Of a stretch of DNA of 23,456 nucleotides, positions 8,532 through 12,835 are shown one piece after another. The notes under the pieces were generated by a model. That model saw nothing but the letters and a program-made list of their open reading frames with translations, made no database searches and was not told where the DNA came from. This stretch comes from a virus, in the UHGV virus genome UHGV-0795592; one strand, given 5' to 3'. The translations under genes and the position numbers were made by a program. Numbering within the stretch: position 1 is the first letter of the stretch; the number at the start of each line of letters is the position of its first letter.

Positions 8532-9719
8532 ATGGCAGTAGGTGAAATTCAAATTAGTGCCTTGCCTCAAGCAGCCTTACCAATTGACCTTAGTGATATC
8601 TTCCATCTTAAGCAGGGTATTGAGGATAAGAGATGTACTCTTGAGCAATTACTTGCTCCACACTCAAGCCTAAAAAATAACCCTCATGGTGTTACTAAGA
8701 CACAAATTGGTTTAGATAATGTTATTAATGCTCTTCAGTTAGTTGCTGCAAATAACTTATCAGATATTGTTAATGTAGCTGAGGCAAGAGCAAATCTACA
8801 GATTATGTCTTCAGAAGAGGTTAATAACCTTGTTCAGCAACATATTAAGGACAAGAGTAACCCACACAATACAACTAAGGCACAGGTTGGTTTAAGTAAT
8901 GTCCAGAACTGGACAACATCTAATCTGTATAACGAAGATGCAGATAAGTATGCTACAGCAAGAGCAGTAAATAACTTGTACAAGGCTGTTCAGGCTTCTT
9001 ATCCAGTAGGTACTATCCATCTTTCTATGAACTCTGCAAATCCTTCTACATACTTAATTTGTGGAGGTACTTGGGAGTTAGTTTCAAAAGGTAGGGCATT
9101 GGTTGGTTATGACTCTGATACAAGGCCAGCAGGTTCTGTATTTGGTGCTTCAACTGTCACTTTGTCAGTTAATAATATGCCTCAACACTCACACTCTGTG
9201 TCTCTCAGTGGTGGTGGTCACACTCATAATGCAACTGTTTCAATCTCAGCTTTTGACTATGGAACTAAGACTACCAACTCTTTTGACTATGGAACAAAGA
9301 CCACTAACACAACTGGTAACCACAATCACGTTGGTAGTGGGTCAACAAGTGCTGCTGGTGCTCACAACCACAGATTGACTTATGAAGCAGGTGGTGGTCT
9401 GTCGGAAAGACCTGCAATGGTTTGGTCTACAAGGAATGACCAATCGTGGTACTCAGCAGATGCTGTCTGCGAAGTCGCTGGTTCGCACACCCACTCTTTT
9501 AGCGTTACCACTAACACAACCGGTAACCACAATCACACAGTGGGTATTGGTGCTCATAGCCATACAGTTGGTATTGGTTCACATACACACAACGGTACTG
9601 TGACAGTTTCTTCTTCTGAGCATACACATAGCGGAAACACTAACAGTGTTGGTGGTGGACAAGCTTTCAACATTGAGCAGCCATCATTCGTACTGTATGT
9701 ATGGCAGAGAACAGCTTAA
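8532..9719 (+). CDS. tail fibre protein (receptor-binding), short paralogue
   Basis: 395 aa, Shine-Dalgarno AGGAG. Two copies of a fibre-repeat-like motif (NPH..TK.Q.GL.NV.N). Collar-like segment (YPVGTIHLSMNSANPSTYLICGGTWEL). C-terminal His-x-His array (QHSHS, GGHTHN, GNHNH, GAHNH, GSHTHS, GAHSHTVGIGSHTHN, EHTHS). Confidence 0.8.
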   Translation: MAVGEIQISALPQAALPIDLSDIFHLKQGIEDKRCTLEQLLAPHSSLKNNPHGVTKTQIGLDNVINALQLVAANNLSDIVNVAEARANLQIMSSEEVNNLVQQHIKDKSNPHNTTKAQVGLSNVQNWTTSNLYNEDADKYATARAVNNLYKAVQASYPVGTIHLSMNSANPSTYLICGGTWELVSKGRALVGYDSDTRPAGSVFGASTVTLSVNNMPQHSHSVSLSGGGHTHNATVSISAFDYGTKTTNSFDYGTKTTNTTGNHNHVGSGSTSAAGAHNHRLTYEAGGGLSERPAMVWSTRNDQSWYSADAVCEVAGSHTHSFSVTTNTTGNHNHTVGIGAHSHTVGIGSHTHNGTVTVSSSEHTHSGNTNSVGGGQAFNIEQPSFVLYVWQRTA

Positions 9720-9728
9720 TTTCTTTAC

Positions 9729-9751
9729 AGGGGCTTTATAGCCCCTTTTAA
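9729..9751 (+). terminator. weak intrinsic terminator or attenuator between the two tail-fibre genes
   Basis: Hairpin AGGGGCT-TTAT-AGCCCCT (9729-9746) followed by TTTTA. The T-run is short, so readthrough is likely. Confidence 0.4.
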
Positions 9752-9765
9752 GAGGAAAATTTATA

Positions 9766-12150
9766 ATGGCAGATTACAAGTTGAGTGAATTAAACTCAAT
9801 CGACACAATCCGTTCAGATGACCTTCTTCATGTCAGAGTTAAAAAGAGACCTGAAATGCTGGGTGATGAAGACCGTCGAATGACCTATCAAGACTTCTTA
9901 GCATCTTTTAAACTTGAGAGATTTGTTCAGATTGCTGGTAGCACTATGGCAGGTGACTTAGGAATTGTTAAGTTACTTTATGGTGGTAAGACAGTATTTG
10001 ACCCAACAGGCTCTTCTGAGATTAATATCGGAGATGTTTTAAAGTCTTTTAAAATCAACTCAAATGGTCTTAAGCTAACTATTGCAGATGCTTCAAGGTC
10101 AGCAACTGTTTACCATACTCTGAATAAACCAAGTCCTAATGAACTTGGGATGAGAACTAATGAAGAGAATGATGCAAGATATGCAAGATTAGCTGTAAAT
10201 AACACATTTAGAGGTACTCAAGCTATCCTCTCTGATAATGAAGCTCTTATTGTTAAGAACATTACACAAGGAATGCCGCTATATATTCGTGGTCAAGATG
10301 CAGACGGTACTAACAGGTGGTATCTAGGTAATGATAATAAAGGCACAGACAACCTTGTGTTAAAGAATGTCAAGACTGACGTTTCAATTGCTATTTTGGG
10401 AAATTTAGTAACAGTCAACAGGACTCTTCAAATTGCTGGTCAAGTTCAGCCATCAAGTTTTGCTAACTTGGATGCTAGATATTTTACTCAAACAGAAGCT
10501 AACCAGAGATTTGCACAGTTAGCTGGTAATAACACATTTAGTGGCTCTAATATTTTCACTAATTTTGTTGTTAAGAAGAATGCTAATGCTATTACTCTGC
10601 AAAATGTAGATACAACTGCTGCTTTGTATATCCGAGCAAGAAAATCAGATGGAACTAATAAGTGGTACATTGGTAATGACGGTGATGAGAACATTGTAAA
10701 CATCTATAACTATTTAGCAAGAACACAAATCTCACTAGGTAACACCATTACCATGAGCAGAACAGTCCAAATTGGTGGTCAAGTTCAACCTTCAGATTGG
10801 GCTAACATTGACTCTAGATACATCCCAGCCGCAACTTTGAGTAACCTACCTAAACTTAATGTTGCTAACACATTTGTGAATGTGCAAACTATTGTATCAA
10901 ATAATGAAGGCGTAGTATTAAGGAACTTAACACAGGGGCAGCCACAATATATCCGTGGTGTTGATACTGCGAATGTATCTAGATGGTGGGTAGGTGTGGG
11001 TGGCACAAATTCTACTGATGTAGCCTTAAACAATAGTTTCTCTGGCACTCAAATTACTCTTGGGACTTCAGTGATTAAGGCTAATAAGAATCTAACCATT
11101 ACTGGTCAAGTTCAGCCATCTGATTGGTCTAACTTAGATGCTAGATACTTTGTTAAGACTCAGTTATTAAATCAATCCTTGATGACTGTATCTGTAGATA
11201 ATCTTGAAAACCCTTCAGCATTTAATCTTGGGTATTCAGGTTTTGTCAGAAACAACAGTGTGACTAGTGGTCTGAAAGAGTTGGCAATTCATGTTGCTCA
11301 CTCTAATAAGTCTGCTGCACATGCAAGGGGTATCTCTTTTGTATACGGTTCAAATGGTTTGGCAACATTCACCTATGCCTATGACAAAAATGGTGACTAT
11401 GCCGGAGAGGCACAGCTTTACACAACTGATTTTAAACCAACCCCTTCAGATATCGGTGCATACACTAAAGCTGAGACTGACCAGAAGATTGCACAGGCAG
11501 TAAGTGACTCTACAGACCTTAATAAAATCTACCCAGTTGGTATTGTAACGTGGTTTAACAGTAATGTTAACCCTAATACAGCACTTCCTGGTCTAACTTG
11601 GACATACCTGAACAATGGTGTTGGTAGAACTATCAGAATCGCAGCAGCAAATGGTTCAGATGTTGCTACAACTGGTGGTTCAGATTCTGTAACGTTAGCT
11701 GTTGGTAACTTACCATCACACACTCACAGTTTCTCTGCTACCACTTCATCTTTTGATTATGGTACGAAGGGTACTAATAGCACTGGTGGTCATACTCACT
11801 CTGTAAGTGGTACAACAAGTGCTGCTGGTAACCACGCTCACCACTTAGGTCTGCTATTGGTTAATGGTGGTGATGCTCAGTACGGATATACCACTATTGG
11901 TAACAATAAGACAAGAACTCTTGACTGGCTTGACAGAACTGATAACAAGTTCCCTAACACTAACACAACTGGTAACCATACACACACATGGTCTGGTACT
12001 ACAAGTGGTGCTGGTAACCATTCCCACTCTGTAGGCATTGGTGCTCACAGCCACACAGTTAGTGGTAATACTGGTAGTACAGGTTCTGGTTCGGCATTTA
12101 GTGTTACTAACCAGTTCTACAAGTTAATGGCTTGGGTAAGAACTGCTTAA
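9766..12150 (+). CDS. tail fibre protein (receptor-binding), long paralogue
   Basis: 794 aa, Shine-Dalgarno AGAGGAA. Three tandem repeats of about 105 aa. Collar-like segment ([27 protein letters not shown]). C-terminal His-x-His array (PSHTHS, GGHTHS, GNHAHH, GNHTHT, GNHSHS, GAHSHT) and the same FDYGTK motif as the 395-aa fibre. Confidence 0.8.
10186..11152 (+). repeat. three in-frame tandem repeats (about 105 codons each) inside the long tail-fibre gene
   Basis: Each protein repeat has the form NNTF.G…N.TQG.P.YIRG.D..GTN.WY.GND…RTLQI.GQVQPS.(F/W).N.D.RY. Approximate repeat starts are 10186, 10510 and 10849. Confidence 0.6.
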
Positions 12151-12229: not shown

Positions 12230-12427
12230 ATGCCTACAATCCTAGCAATTCTTCTAAAAAATCTAGGTAGCTTCTTCTGGAAACTCATTTTATCCCTTCT
12301 AAGTGAATACATGATTGAGAAAGTGTTCTTTAGGCTTGCAAGATACCTTGCGAGTAAAACAGACACACCTATTGATGATGAGTTCGTAGATAACTTAGAA
12401 AAAGCTTTTAAGGGGGAGAATAAATGA
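12230..12427 (+). CDS. small hydrophobic protein (lysis- or exclusion-associated candidate)
   Basis: 65 aa with an N-terminal hydrophobic/amphipathic segment (ILAILLKNLGSFFWKLILSLL) and a charged C-terminus. Stop overlaps the next ATG (ATGA). Confidence 0.4.
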   Translation: MPTILAILLKNLGSFFWKLILSLLSEYMIEKVFFRLARYLASKTDTPIDDEFVDNLEKAFKGENK

Positions 12428-12795
12428 AGTGGCTAGAGGAAGCTTTTAAAAATAATATTGGTGCAATTGTAGTTGGTATTTTTAGTGTTATTGGTATGTA
12501 TACCACCATGCAAGTCTCGGATGGTAAGCAAGAAGTGTCTATCACAACAAAGTTACAGCAGTTAGATAATTATTCCAAAAGTAATTATTCAGCTATTCGT
12601 GATTTACAGTCTGATATGAGGCTGCTTCAGCTAGGGATGGAGAACCAGAAAGTCCAGTTAGAGAATGTTAAGGGTGAGAACGCAAAACTTACTAAGACTC
12701 TTGATAAATTCTCTGATAGTGTGAACAATCTGGCTCAATCAGTATCAGCCCTCCAAGCTATTACTGAAAAGAACACAAAGAATACTGAAAAGTAA
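12424..12795 (+). CDS. single-pass membrane protein with a coiled-coil C-terminal domain (holin/spanin-like candidate)
   Basis: 123 aa, Shine-Dalgarno GGGGGAG. N-terminal transmembrane segment (IGAIVVGIFSVIGMYTTM) followed by a heptad-like, Q/L/K-rich domain. Located just downstream of the tail fibres. Confidence 0.45.
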   Translation: MKWLEEAFKNNIGAIVVGIFSVIGMYTTMQVSDGKQEVSITTKLQQLDNYSKSNYSAIRDLQSDMRLLQLGMENQKVQLENVKGENAKLTKTLDKFSDSVNNLAQSVSALQAITEKNTKNTEK

Positions 12796-12800
12796 AGTTT

Positions 12801-12835
12801 AAGGCTCCTTTTTACGGGAGCCTTTTTTGTTTTAT
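12801..12835 (+). terminator. intrinsic terminator at the convergence point of the two modules
   Basis: Stem AAGGCTCC (12801-12808), loop of 8 nt, stem GGAGCCTT (12817-12824), then TTTTTGTTTT. It lies between the stop at 12795 (plus) and the thyA stop at 12832-12834 (minus). Confidence 0.6.

What the first reader, a model, noticed from the sequence alone, without database searches (positions are those of the whole stretch)
8532..12150. Paralogous tail fibres sharing a collar domain, FDYGTK motif and His-x-His arrays, with recombinogenic nucleotide repeats
Both fibres end in long arrays of H-x-H triads separated by G/S/T-rich linkers, and both carry a collar-like segment and the FDYGTK(T/G)TN motif. 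H-x-H repeats coordinate metal ions in the receptor-binding tips of T4 long and short tail fibres. Near-identical nucleotide stretches recur within and between the genes (aacacaac[t/c]ggtaaccacaatcac at about 9307 and 9522, related copy near 11960; tandem 27-nt duplication at 9251-9305). The long fibre also has three 105-aa tandem repeats. This is a likely hotspot for host-range change by repeat-mediated recombination.
Basis: partly seen in the sequence, partly recalled or inferred. Interest (0 to 1): 0.55.

Follow-up and report, generated by a model that had tools for sequence, protein, structure and literature searches.

The report
Felix O1-type phage tail fibre tips
These are the short and long tail fibre genes of a Felix O1-like phage, both ending in a T4 gp37-type metal-stapled needle whose receptor-binding head is swapped as a cassette; this architecture is already published, so the finding is correct but mostly ordinary.

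Summary
The window is a Felixounavirus, 93-96% identical to GenBank phages. ORFs 8532-9719 (395 aa, STF) and 9766-12150 (794 aa, LTF) are its two baseplate fibres.

Both C-termini match the T4 gp37 receptor-binding tip, PDB 2XGF (E 2.6e-26 and 5e-22). All seven iron-binding HxH motifs of T4 align to HxH in the STF, which has 9. The LTF has 6. Two details need correcting: the tandem duplication has a 30-nt period, not 27, and the LTF repeats are 109-113 aa, not 105.

Comparison with 26 related loci and GenBank supports cassette exchange.
- Copy numbers vary: FDYG units 2-4 in the STF, HxH 7-9 in the STF and 4-6 in the LTF.
- In UAB_Phi87 the STF and LTF share a 113-nt exact head tract.
- The VpaE1 LTF head is 96% nt-identical to T4 gene 37.
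- The window's LTF tip tract (11744-12047) is 85% identical to a T-even gp37.
- Head types track host genus.

The architecture was published for VpaE1 (2015) and Bas63 (2025). Recombination at conserved motifs was described for T-even phages in 1996/98. The kind of system is therefore known, and only details are new. Metal binding and host-range effects are inferred, not shown.

The parts
8532..9719 (+). Short tail fibre gene (STF, 395 aa). By position and size it corresponds to Bas63 gp26 and VpaE1 gp74.
   Evidence: ORF. PHROG 2097 tail fiber, E 2e-137. Annotated 'tail fiber' in GenBank relatives.
8532..8951 (+). Conserved STF N-terminal part (aa 1-140), presumed to bind the baseplate and form the shaft
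   Evidence: 93-100% aa identity in 22 of 25 relatives (82-84% in L014, L015 and L017). Mean pairwise nt identity 80-98%. The function is inferred from Bas63 (PMC12609058).
8991..9185 (+). STF collar (T4 D10-like) domain
   Evidence: Pfam Gp10_C over aa 154-261. PDB matches to the T4 gp10 C-terminal domain and 2XGF.
9186..9371 (+). STF ascending half of the needle: 4 HxH (aa 219, 230, 264, 278) and 2 FDYGTK units
   Evidence: alignment to T4 H883, H915, H929.
9250..9308 (+). Tandem 30-nt duplication encoding (A/S)FDYGTKTTN x2
   Evidence: TRF reports period 30, 2.0 copies, 89% matches. Repeat family D7.
9306..9329 (+). Left copy of the 24-nt repeat (TNTTGNHNH). This is the left boundary of the STF head cassette.
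   Evidence: Identity to type-B relatives drops here.
9372..9485 (+). STF head (receptor-binding) segment, aa 281-318, hypervariable
   Evidence: Mean pairwise identity 33-56%. Seven allele types among 24 genomes. This type occurs in 32 of 234 records.
9486..9629 (+). STF descending half of the needle: 5 HxH (aa 319, 333, 342, 351, 364)
   Evidence: aligned to T4 H966, H980, H989, H998, plus one extra.
9513..9536 (+). Right copy of the 24-nt repeat. This is the right boundary of the STF head cassette.
   Evidence: Identity recovers to 86-93% from about 9527.
9522..9599 (+). 27-nt-period array GxHxHTVGI x3
   Evidence: Repeat family D3, spacing 27 nt.
9766..12150 (+). Long tail fibre gene (LTF, 794 aa). 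By position and size it corresponds to Bas63 gp27 and VpaE1 gp75.
   Evidence: ORF. PHROG 4277, E 0. GenBank annotations.
10156..11175 (+). Three ~110-aa shaft repeats (Pfam gp37_trimer x3)
   Evidence: E 1.3e-59. Alignment of the three units.
10417..10485 (+). Conserved repeat junction 1 ([16 protein letters not shown])
   Evidence: Repeat family D2. It is a conserved island of 76-84% identity between variable cassettes.
10756..10824 (+). Conserved repeat junction 2
   Evidence: Family D2. Island of 69-89% identity.
11083..11151 (+). Conserved repeat junction 3
   Evidence: Family D2. Island of 72-80% identity.
11521..11718 (+). LTF collar (D10-like) domain
   Evidence: Pfam Gp10_C over aa 586-695 at 24.1 bits, below the cut-off of 27. 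It aligns with the STF collar. Conserved at 81-91%.
11744..12047 (+). LTF tip tract shared with a T-even gp37, running from SSFDYGTK to [10 protein letters not shown]
   Evidence: 304 nt, 85.2% identity, ungapped, to Shigella phage SHBML-50-1 gene 37. Flanks are 30-50% identical.
11842..11976 (+). LTF head segment (aa 693-737), hypervariable
   Evidence: Mean pairwise identity 20-36%. Twelve allele types.
11962..11985 (+). Related copy of the 24-nt repeat, at the first descending HxH of the LTF
   Evidence: 3 mismatches. The longest exact tract shared by STF and LTF is 21 nt, at 9302-9322 and 11958-11978.

Best explanation
The region encodes the two baseplate fibres of a Felixounavirus. Each fibre ends in a T4 gp37-type tip. 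The chain forms a collar and runs up a trimeric beta-needle. It then forms a small head that contacts the receptor and runs back down the needle to the collar.

The HxH motifs on the ascending and descending strands are predicted to point to the three-fold axis. Each layer would hold one metal ion through six histidines. That predicts 9 layers in the short fibre and 6 in the long one, against 7 in T4.

Because the chain doubles back, the head is encoded in the middle of the tip. It is flanked on both sides by conserved needle-coding DNA: the FDYGTK units and the GxHxH(T/S)VGIG boxes. These conserved stretches serve as homology anchors for replacing the head. Replacement occurs between related phages, between the two paralogous fibre genes, and with T-even gene 37. 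The likely result is a change of receptor specificity without disturbing the fold.

The long fibre's shaft is also modular. Three ~110-aa repeats are separated by conserved GQVQPS..RY junctions, and the segments between them assort independently.

Shown here: the homology, the motif alignment, the mosaic pattern, the boundary positions and the association with host genus. Inferred: metal binding, receptor binding by the head, and homologous recombination as the mechanism.
For: Identity of the locus:
- Megablast finds 234 Felixounavirus records, the best at 93-96%.
- Synteny matches a Felixounavirus tail module: tape measure, Dit-like, baseplate J (489 aa), 287-aa and 100-aa proteins, then STF and LTF.

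Tip homology:
- phmmer against PDB 2XGF gives E 2.6e-26 and 5e-22.
- All seven T4 HxH (H883, 915, 929, 966, 980, 989, 998) align to HxH in the STF, and six of them in the LTF.
- The seven irons and the requirement for H929/H931 in T4 are reported in PMC6957217.
- Bas63 cryo-EM shows collar, needle and head on both fibres (PMC12609058).

Cassette exchange:
- STF identity to type-B relatives is at least 90% up to about 9312-9328, 33-60% up to about 9497-9527, then 86-93%.
- The allele table shows independent assortment of 12 segments. For example, LTF R1/R2 occur as all four combinations A/A, A/B, C/A and C/B.
- Within one genome, STF and LTF heads share a 113-nt exact tract in L023 (UAB_Phi87) and are 96% identical in L011, while their collars are 26-56% identical.
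- The VpaE1 LTF matches T4 gene 37 at 96% over 225 nt and 93% over 287 nt, with flanks at 26-43%.
- The window LTF matches SHBML-50-1 gp37 at 85.2% over 304 nt.

Copy number and host link:
- FDYG units number 2-4 in the STF. HxH number 7-9 (STF) and 4-6 (LTF).
- The window's head types occur in E. coli/Shigella phages (31 of 32 and 35 of 36 records).
- The VGG[RH]YGGDSIGGKQRVQ head occurs in 72 Salmonella phages out of 78 records, including Felix O1.
Against: - No structure could be obtained here. The AF2 single-chain model had pLDDT 32.8, and the tool cannot model trimers, so clustering of the histidines was not tested directly.
- Boundaries at conserved motifs are partly expected in any case, because only conserved DNA can be aligned or recombined. 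Coincidence with the motifs therefore does not prove that they are preferred crossover sites.
- The seven type-B relatives probably descend from one exchange event, so there are few independent events (about four were examined).
- Within this window the two fibre genes share at most 21 exact nt and have unrelated heads, so there is no sign of recent exchange in this genome.
- Copy-number differences are seen only between deeply diverged alleles, not between close relatives.
- Host labels in GenBank are isolation hosts, not measured host ranges.
Confidence: 0.85

Rival explanations
1. Strict repeat-mediated rearrangement within the genome is the main driver. Slippage or unequal crossing-over between the tandem and dispersed repeats of this phage would change the number of units and the needle length, and so change host range. 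This is what was seen for T4 host-range mutants carrying duplications in gene 37.
For: - Unit numbers differ among alleles: FDYG 2-4, HxH 7-9 in the STF and 4-6 in the LTF.
- The T-even SHBML-50-1 gp37 has an extra FDYGTK unit and 8 HxH, against 7 in T4.
- In type-A alleles a 24-30 nt direct repeat flanks the head. In L004 both copies carry the same A>G change.
- The Tetart 1996 duplications are cited in PMC3157838.
Against: - No copy-number polymorphism was found among closely related alleles in 26 loci.
- The repeat copies within the window are diverged (65-90%) and the exact tracts are short, at most 21 nt between the genes.
- Recombination between the 9306 and 9513 copies would delete the head (69 codons).
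- The large identity jumps are replacements by foreign sequence, not changes in copy number.
Confidence: 0.25
2. There is no recombination. The heads diverged in place under diversifying selection, and the FDYGTK and HxH segments look like boundaries only because structural constraint keeps them conserved.
For: The conserved motifs are structurally essential in T4, where alanine substitution of the iron-binding histidines abolishes plaque formation (PMC6957217). They would therefore be conserved under any model.
Against: - Nearly identical heads sit in unrelated backgrounds. T4 and VpaE1 are 96% identical in the head and 26-43% in the flanks.
- A 113-nt exact tract is shared by two paralogues whose collars are 26-56% identical.
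- Segments assort independently, with all four combinations present.
- The head proteins cannot be aligned between types although the flanks differ by only about 5%.
Confidence: 0.03
3. The HxH arrays are not metal sites in these fibres. They would be only a sequence signature of the beta-needle repeat.
For: No metal data exist for any Felixounavirus fibre. Local resolution of the fibres in the Bas63 map was too low to interpret individual residues (PMC12609058).
Against: - The motifs align one-to-one with the seven iron-binding HxH of T4 gp37 (PMC6957217).
- Every allele examined keeps both histidines of each motif even though the middle residue and the flanks vary.
- 18 of 24 histidines in the STF and 12 of 18 in the LTF lie in HxH motifs.
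Confidence: 0.05

Closest known systems
T4 gp37 receptor-binding tip (domains D10 collar and D11 needle/head; PDB 2XGF, Bartual et al. 2010; functional map in PMC6957217)
   Same: - Same domain order, the FDYGTK motif and the HxH ladder.
- All seven T4 HxH align.
- The head lies between the ascending and descending needle halves.
- The C-terminal ...(R)(T/L)A end is shared.
- The window's LTF tip tract is 85% nt-identical to a T-even gp37 allele.
   Different: - The tips sit on single-protein fibres of 395 and 794 aa attached directly to a simple baseplate. They are not at the end of a four-protein jointed fibre.
- There are 9 and 6 HxH layers instead of 7.
- No gp38-type chaperone gene was found in the window, or in the whole genome of the relative VpaE1.
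Bas63 (JohannRWettstein) STF gp26 and LTF gp27, cryo-EM, Sci Adv 2025 (PMC12609058); Sf14 fibres (PMC11821841); VpaE1 gp74/gp75 (PMC4690856)
   Same: - Same genus, gene order and two-fibre layout.
- Both fibres have T4-like collar, needle and head tips with HxH motifs.
- High variability of the tips and of the LTF shaft repeats has already been reported.
   Different: - The window's STF has 9 HxH and 2 FDYG units. Bas63 is reported with 7 HxH, as in the type-C alleles L006, L010, L015 and L017, which have 3 FDYG-like units.
- The head types differ.
- Those papers attribute the variability to sequence divergence. They do not describe cassette boundaries, STF-LTF conversion or near-identity to T-even gene 37.
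Conserved-motif recombination in T-even adhesins (Tetart et al. 1996, 1998; summarised in PMC3157838)
   Same: Hypervariable specificity segments are flanked by short conserved motifs at which exchanges occur. Changes in unit number are linked to host range.
   Different: - It was described for T-even gp37/gp38, not for Felixounavirus.
- Here the same motifs also connect two paralogous fibres in one genome, and connect two different phage families.
T4 gp12 short tail fibre and gp10 C-terminal domains (Pfam Gp10_C; 'collar' fold)
   Same: The collar segment matches Gp10_C and PDB gp10 chains. From memory, not checked here: gp12 also uses one HxH per chain to bind a metal, zinc (Thomassen et al. 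2003).
   Different: Only the collar is shared. The long multi-layer needle and the FDYGTK units are of gp37 type, not gp12 type.

Membership tests
T4 gp37-type receptor-binding tip (2XGF fold) | Significant sequence homology to the solved tip | tested here: met
   phmmer against the PDB: STF aa 146-367 with 2xgf_A, E 2.6e-26. LTF aa 650-774, E 5.1e-22.
T4 gp37-type receptor-binding tip (2XGF fold) | Collar (D10) domain preceding the needle, of the fold shared with gp10/gp11/gp12 | tested here: met
   STF: Pfam Gp10_C at 68.6 bits (cut-off 27), plus PDB gp10 matches. LTF: 24.1 bits, just under the cut-off, but it aligns with the STF collar.
T4 gp37-type receptor-binding tip (2XGF fold) | HxH motifs at the positions of the seven iron-binding motifs | tested here: met
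   7 of 7 align in the STF (plus 2 extra at aa 230 and 364). 6 of 7 align in the LTF, which lacks the H998 equivalent.
T4 gp37-type receptor-binding tip (2XGF fold) | Chain reversal, with the variable head encoded between the ascending and descending needle halves | tested here: met
   The diversity minimum (20-56% identity) lies between the third or fourth and the next HxH in both genes, with conserved needle coding on both sides. This is indirect evidence, from alignment only.
T4 gp37-type receptor-binding tip (2XGF fold) | Trimer with metal ions, each held by six histidines on the axis | not testable with these tools
   Only single-chain AF2 is available, and the model had pLDDT 32.8. No metal analysis is possible.
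T4 long tail fibre system | Dedicated gp38-type (Tfa-like) assembly chaperone encoded next to the fibre gene | tested here: not met
   tblastn with T4 and SHBML-50-1 gp38 gave no hit in the window or in 26 loci (best E 0.29), nor in the whole VpaE1 genome. None of 25 evenly spaced rows of the 348 gp38-positive records is a genome of Felixounavirus size.
Felixounavirus STF/LTF pair (Bas63 gp26/gp27) | Nucleotide identity and gene order of a Felixounavirus tail module | tested here: met
   93-96% identity to many Felixounavirus genomes. Same order of baseplate genes, 100-aa ORF, STF, LTF, two small ORFs, and thymidylate synthase on the opposite strand.
Conserved-motif cassette recombination (T-even adhesin model) | Abrupt identity switches located in short conserved motifs that flank hypervariable segments | tested here: met
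   Four independent comparisons start at the FDYGTK codons and end in a descending GxHxH box.
Conserved-motif cassette recombination (T-even adhesin model) | The same cassette found in otherwise dissimilar genes or genomes | tested here: met
   T4 and VpaE1 at 96%. STF and LTF of UAB_Phi87 share 113 exact nt. Window LTF and SHBML-50-1 at 85%.
Conserved-motif cassette recombination (T-even adhesin model) | Exchange demonstrated to change host range | not testable with these tools
   Only a correlation of head type with the host genus written in GenBank records is available.

The most novel reading that the evidence does not exclude
The FDYGTK/His-box-delimited head is a cassette drawn from one common pool. 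That pool is shared by the short and long fibres of Felixounavirus and by T-even gp37.
- The shared tracts are near-identical: 96% nt between T4 and VpaE1, and 113 exact nt between the two fibres of UAB_Phi87.
- The same tip is functional in phages with no gp38-type chaperone. Either T4-type needles can fold without gp38 in this fibre context, or an unrecognised chaperone exists. The conserved small ORFs at 12230-12795 are candidates.
- In the papers read or searched here, neither the cross-family or paralogue sharing nor the chaperone question is described for this genus.
Probability: 0.4. Interest if true: 0.45.

Novelty: already known. Interest (0 to 1): 0.25.

Why it matters
Felix O1-like phages are used for Salmonella typing and biocontrol, and are candidates for phage therapy. 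Their receptor recognition is still poorly defined.

Three points could be useful in practice:
- The receptor-binding head is a short cassette (9372-9485 and 11842-11976 here) bounded by conserved FDYGTK and His-box codons. This gives precise junctions for engineering host range.
- The same junctions work across phage families.
- Salmonella and E. coli lineages carry different heads.

The apparent absence of a gp38-type chaperone would make such tips easier to express. None of this changes the current view of tail-fibre evolution. It extends a T-even paradigm to another genus.

Tried and rejected
- AF2 of STF aa 141-395 as a single chain without an alignment gave pLDDT 32.8 and pTM 0.18. The model is unusable, so no fold search was run. 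A trimer cannot be modelled with the tool.
- The second prediction job and the large homologue searches were not spent. A monomer model cannot show axial histidine clusters, and homology to 2XGF was already decisive.
- Tandem Repeats Finder reported only the 30-nt array, not the 27-nt-period His-box array or the ~330-nt shaft repeats. Those came from the repeat finder and a manual alignment.
- The Bartual 2010 and Hyman & van Raaij 2018 papers are not held. A text search for 'His boxes' found nothing. The T-even recombination model is therefore cited through PMC3157838 and from memory.
- Recent STF-LTF exchange within the window itself was considered and rejected. The heads are unrelated and the longest exact shared tract is 21 nt.
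- The alternative-frame ORFs inside the fibre genes (9103-9378 and 9382-9603) were considered. There is no evidence for them and they were not pursued.
- The 'cos site' and terminator annotated inside or near the fibre genes of KhF2 were taken as pattern-based annotations. The only terminator-like site on the + strand here is at 12801-12824.


Full report
**What the window is.** Megablast of 8532-12150 finds 234 phage records. Almost all are Felixounavirus (Felix O1-like myoviruses of E. coli, Salmonella and Shigella), and the best are 93-96% identical. The surrounding genes fit that genus. On the + strand lie a tape measure, a Dit-like protein, a baseplate J-like protein (489 aa), a 287-aa baseplate protein and a 100-aa ORF, followed by the two fibre genes. 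Thymidylate synthase, DHFR, DNA ligase and a family A DNA polymerase lie on the - strand. The same order is annotated in KhF2 and VpaE1.

**Checking the observation.** The ORFs 8532-9719 (395 aa, here STF) and 9766-12150 (794 aa, LTF) are real.
- Their C-terminal ~250 residues align at 35% identity, E 6e-28.
- The STF has nine HxH motifs and the LTF six. Shuffled sequences give 1.4+-1.1 and 0.4+-0.6.
- FDYGTK occurs twice in the STF and once in the LTF.
A copy with three mismatches is at 11962-11985. None is expected by chance.

Two details need correction. The tandem duplication is 9250-9308 with a 30-nt period, not 27 nt. A distinct 27-nt-period array, GxHxHTVGI x3, lies at 9522-9599. The three shaft repeats of the LTF have periods of 113 and 109 aa, not 105. 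Pfam scores them as gp37_trimer x3, E 1.3e-59.

**What the tips are.** Both C-termini match the crystal structure of the T4 gp37 receptor-binding tip, 2XGF (E 2.6e-26 and 5.1e-22). The matches include the FDYGTK motif. The collar matches Pfam Gp10_C and PDB gp10 chains.

In a three-way alignment, all seven HxH motifs of T4 gp37 (H883, H915, H929, H966, H980, H989, H998) fall on HxH motifs of the STF (aa 219, 264, 278, 319, 333, 342, 351). The STF has two more, at aa 230 and 364. One lies on the ascending and one on the descending strand, next to the collar. The LTF lacks the equivalent of H998.

In T4 these motifs coordinate seven iron atoms along the needle. The iron-binding histidines tested by alanine substitution (H929 and H931) are essential. 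The loop between the two needle halves binds LPS and OmpC (PMC6957217). By homology the STF should have nine metal layers and the LTF six.

I could not test this structurally. The only available predictor models single chains, and the model was unusable (pLDDT 32.8).

**Comparison with relatives.** I fetched 26 related loci from IMG/VR and extracted both genes.
- The first 140 residues of the STF are 93-100% identical in 22 of the 25 relatives (82-84% in L014, L015 and L017). The tip falls into several unalignable types.
- The number of FDYG-like units is 2, 3 or 4, and the number of HxH is 7 or 9.
- The LTF has 4 or 6 HxH and many head types.
- At the nucleotide level, the seven type-B relatives are at least 90% identical to the window up to about 9312-9328. 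They are 33-60% identical up to about 9497-9527, and 86-93% identical after that.

A second class of relatives diverges earlier, from about 9100.

The LTF is a mosaic. Five variable segments (three repeat bodies, a middle domain and the head) are separated by conserved islands. These islands coincide with the repeat junctions at 10417-10485, 10756-10824 and 11083-11151 and with the collar. Clustering each segment at 85% identity gives 3 to 15 alleles per segment, in combinations that require recombination. For LTF repeats 1 and 2, all four combinations A/A, A/B, C/A and C/B occur.

**Exchange between paralogues and between families.** In L023, an 87,603-bp contig that matches UAB_Phi87 (same length) at 99%, the STF and LTF heads share a 113-nt exact tract. 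In L011 they are 96% identical. The collars of the same two genes are only 26-56% identical. That head type occurs in 78 records. Seventy-two of them are Salmonella phages, including Felix O1, and most records carry it in two or three places.

The head region of the VpaE1 LTF is 96% identical over 225 nt (93% over 287 nt) to T4 gene 37. Its flanks are 26-43% identical. The window's own LTF tip tract, 11744-12047, is 85.2% identical without gaps to gene 37 of the T-even Shigella phage SHBML-50-1.

In these four independent comparisons the similar tract starts at the FDYGTK codons and ends in a descending GxHxH box. The window's STF and LTF head types occur in 32 and 36 records, almost all from E. 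coli or Shigella phages. In the window itself the two heads are unrelated, and the genes share at most 21 exact nt. This genome therefore shows no recent internal exchange.

**Mechanism.** The best-supported reading has four parts.
- The conserved needle-coding motifs are kept by structural constraint (metal binding, beta-needle packing).
- Because they are conserved, they provide the homology for replacing the head that lies between them.
- The hairpin topology of the tip puts conserved DNA on both sides of the specificity determinant.
- The same logic applies to the shaft repeats and their GQVQPS..RY junctions.

The sequence patterns are shown. Inferred are that exchange proceeds by homologous recombination at these motifs, that the head sets the receptor, and that the motifs bind metal.

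The narrower idea that slippage among this genome's own repeats drives host-range change has weaker support. Copy numbers differ only between deeply diverged alleles, and the repeat copies are short and diverged.

**What is already known.**
- The homology of both Felix O1-type fibres to T4 gp37 was reported for VpaE1 in 2015 (PMC4690856).
- The Bas63 cryo-EM study (PMC12609058) describes an STF (gp26) and an LTF (gp27). Both have T4-like collar, needle and head tips, with seven and six di-histidine motifs. It also reports high variability of the tips and of the LTF repeat domains across the genus.
- Sf14, of the genus Mooglevirus, shows two fibres as well. Its longer fibre has a T4 gp37-like distal tip, and no Mu-type chaperone homologues were found (PMC11821841).
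- Exchange at conserved motifs in T-even adhesins, and host-range change through duplications in gene 37, were described by Tetart and colleagues in 1996 and 1998 (cited in PMC3157838).

The finding is therefore a correct reading of a known system.

Some details were not found in the papers read or searched here:
- nine HxH layers in this STF allele class;
- the exact cassette boundaries;
- conversion between STF and LTF;
- near-identity of some heads to T-even gene 37;
- absence of any detectable gp38-type chaperone in the whole VpaE1 genome, which carries a T4-like head.

**Verdict.** Novelty is low, because the system is already known. Interest is 0.25. The open points worth following are the shared cassette pool and how these needles fold without gp38.

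Noticed in passing
L030+L031 (VpaE1 whole genome); window 1-23456; L001-L026: No gp38-type (Tfa-like) tail fibre chaperone is detectable by tblastn (best E 0.29). Yet the VpaE1 LTF carries a head cassette about 93% aa (5 differences in 75 aligned residues, counted by hand) and 96% nt identical to T4 gp37, and T4 needs gp38 and gp57A to fold that tip.
   Followed up: partly
window 12230-12427 and 12424-12795 (+), terminator-like hairpin 12801-12824: Two small conserved ORFs of unknown function (PHROG 402 and 4038; the second has a weak coiled-coil DivIC hit) lie directly after the long fibre gene. They end at a terminator-like hairpin that faces the convergent thymidylate synthase gene. They are untested candidates for fibre assembly factors.
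   Followed up: partly
L023 4430-4542 and 6889-7001; phage records: Salmonella-infecting Felix O1-group phages carry the same head cassette on both the short and the long fibre. In UAB_Phi87 the shared tract is 113 exact nt. The window's lineage has two unrelated heads. The functional reason is unknown.
   Followed up: partly
window 9300-9329 and 9507-9536; L001, L004, L005, L012: Only the window's STF allele class has the head flanked by a 24-30 nt in-frame direct repeat, 207 nt apart. L001 has 30 exact nt. L004 carries the same A>G change in both copies, a single-site hint of concerted evolution. Recombination between the copies would delete 69 codons, including the head.
   Followed up: partly
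window 8679-8729 and 8859-8909: The STF N-terminal part contains two copies, 60 aa apart, of the motif NPHxxTKxQ(I/V)GLxNV. Many PHROG tail-protein families match this segment, aa 101-133.
   Followed up: no
L018 4813-6174 and L021 4755-6380: In two relatives the long fibre ORF is truncated, at 453 and 541 aa, before the collar and tip. This could be a frameshift, an assembly error or a genuinely split gene.
   Followed up: no
L027 1-1560 (Shigella phage SHBML-50-1 gene 37): This T-even gp37 has an extra FDYGTK unit and 8 HxH motifs, against 7 in T4. Needle length therefore also varies within T-even phages.
   Followed up: no
window 11833-11844 (LTF aa 690-693): The HxH nearest the head in the LTF carries a fourth histidine (HAHH). 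Bas63 is reported to have HHxH at the equivalent layer (PMC12609058).
   Followed up: no
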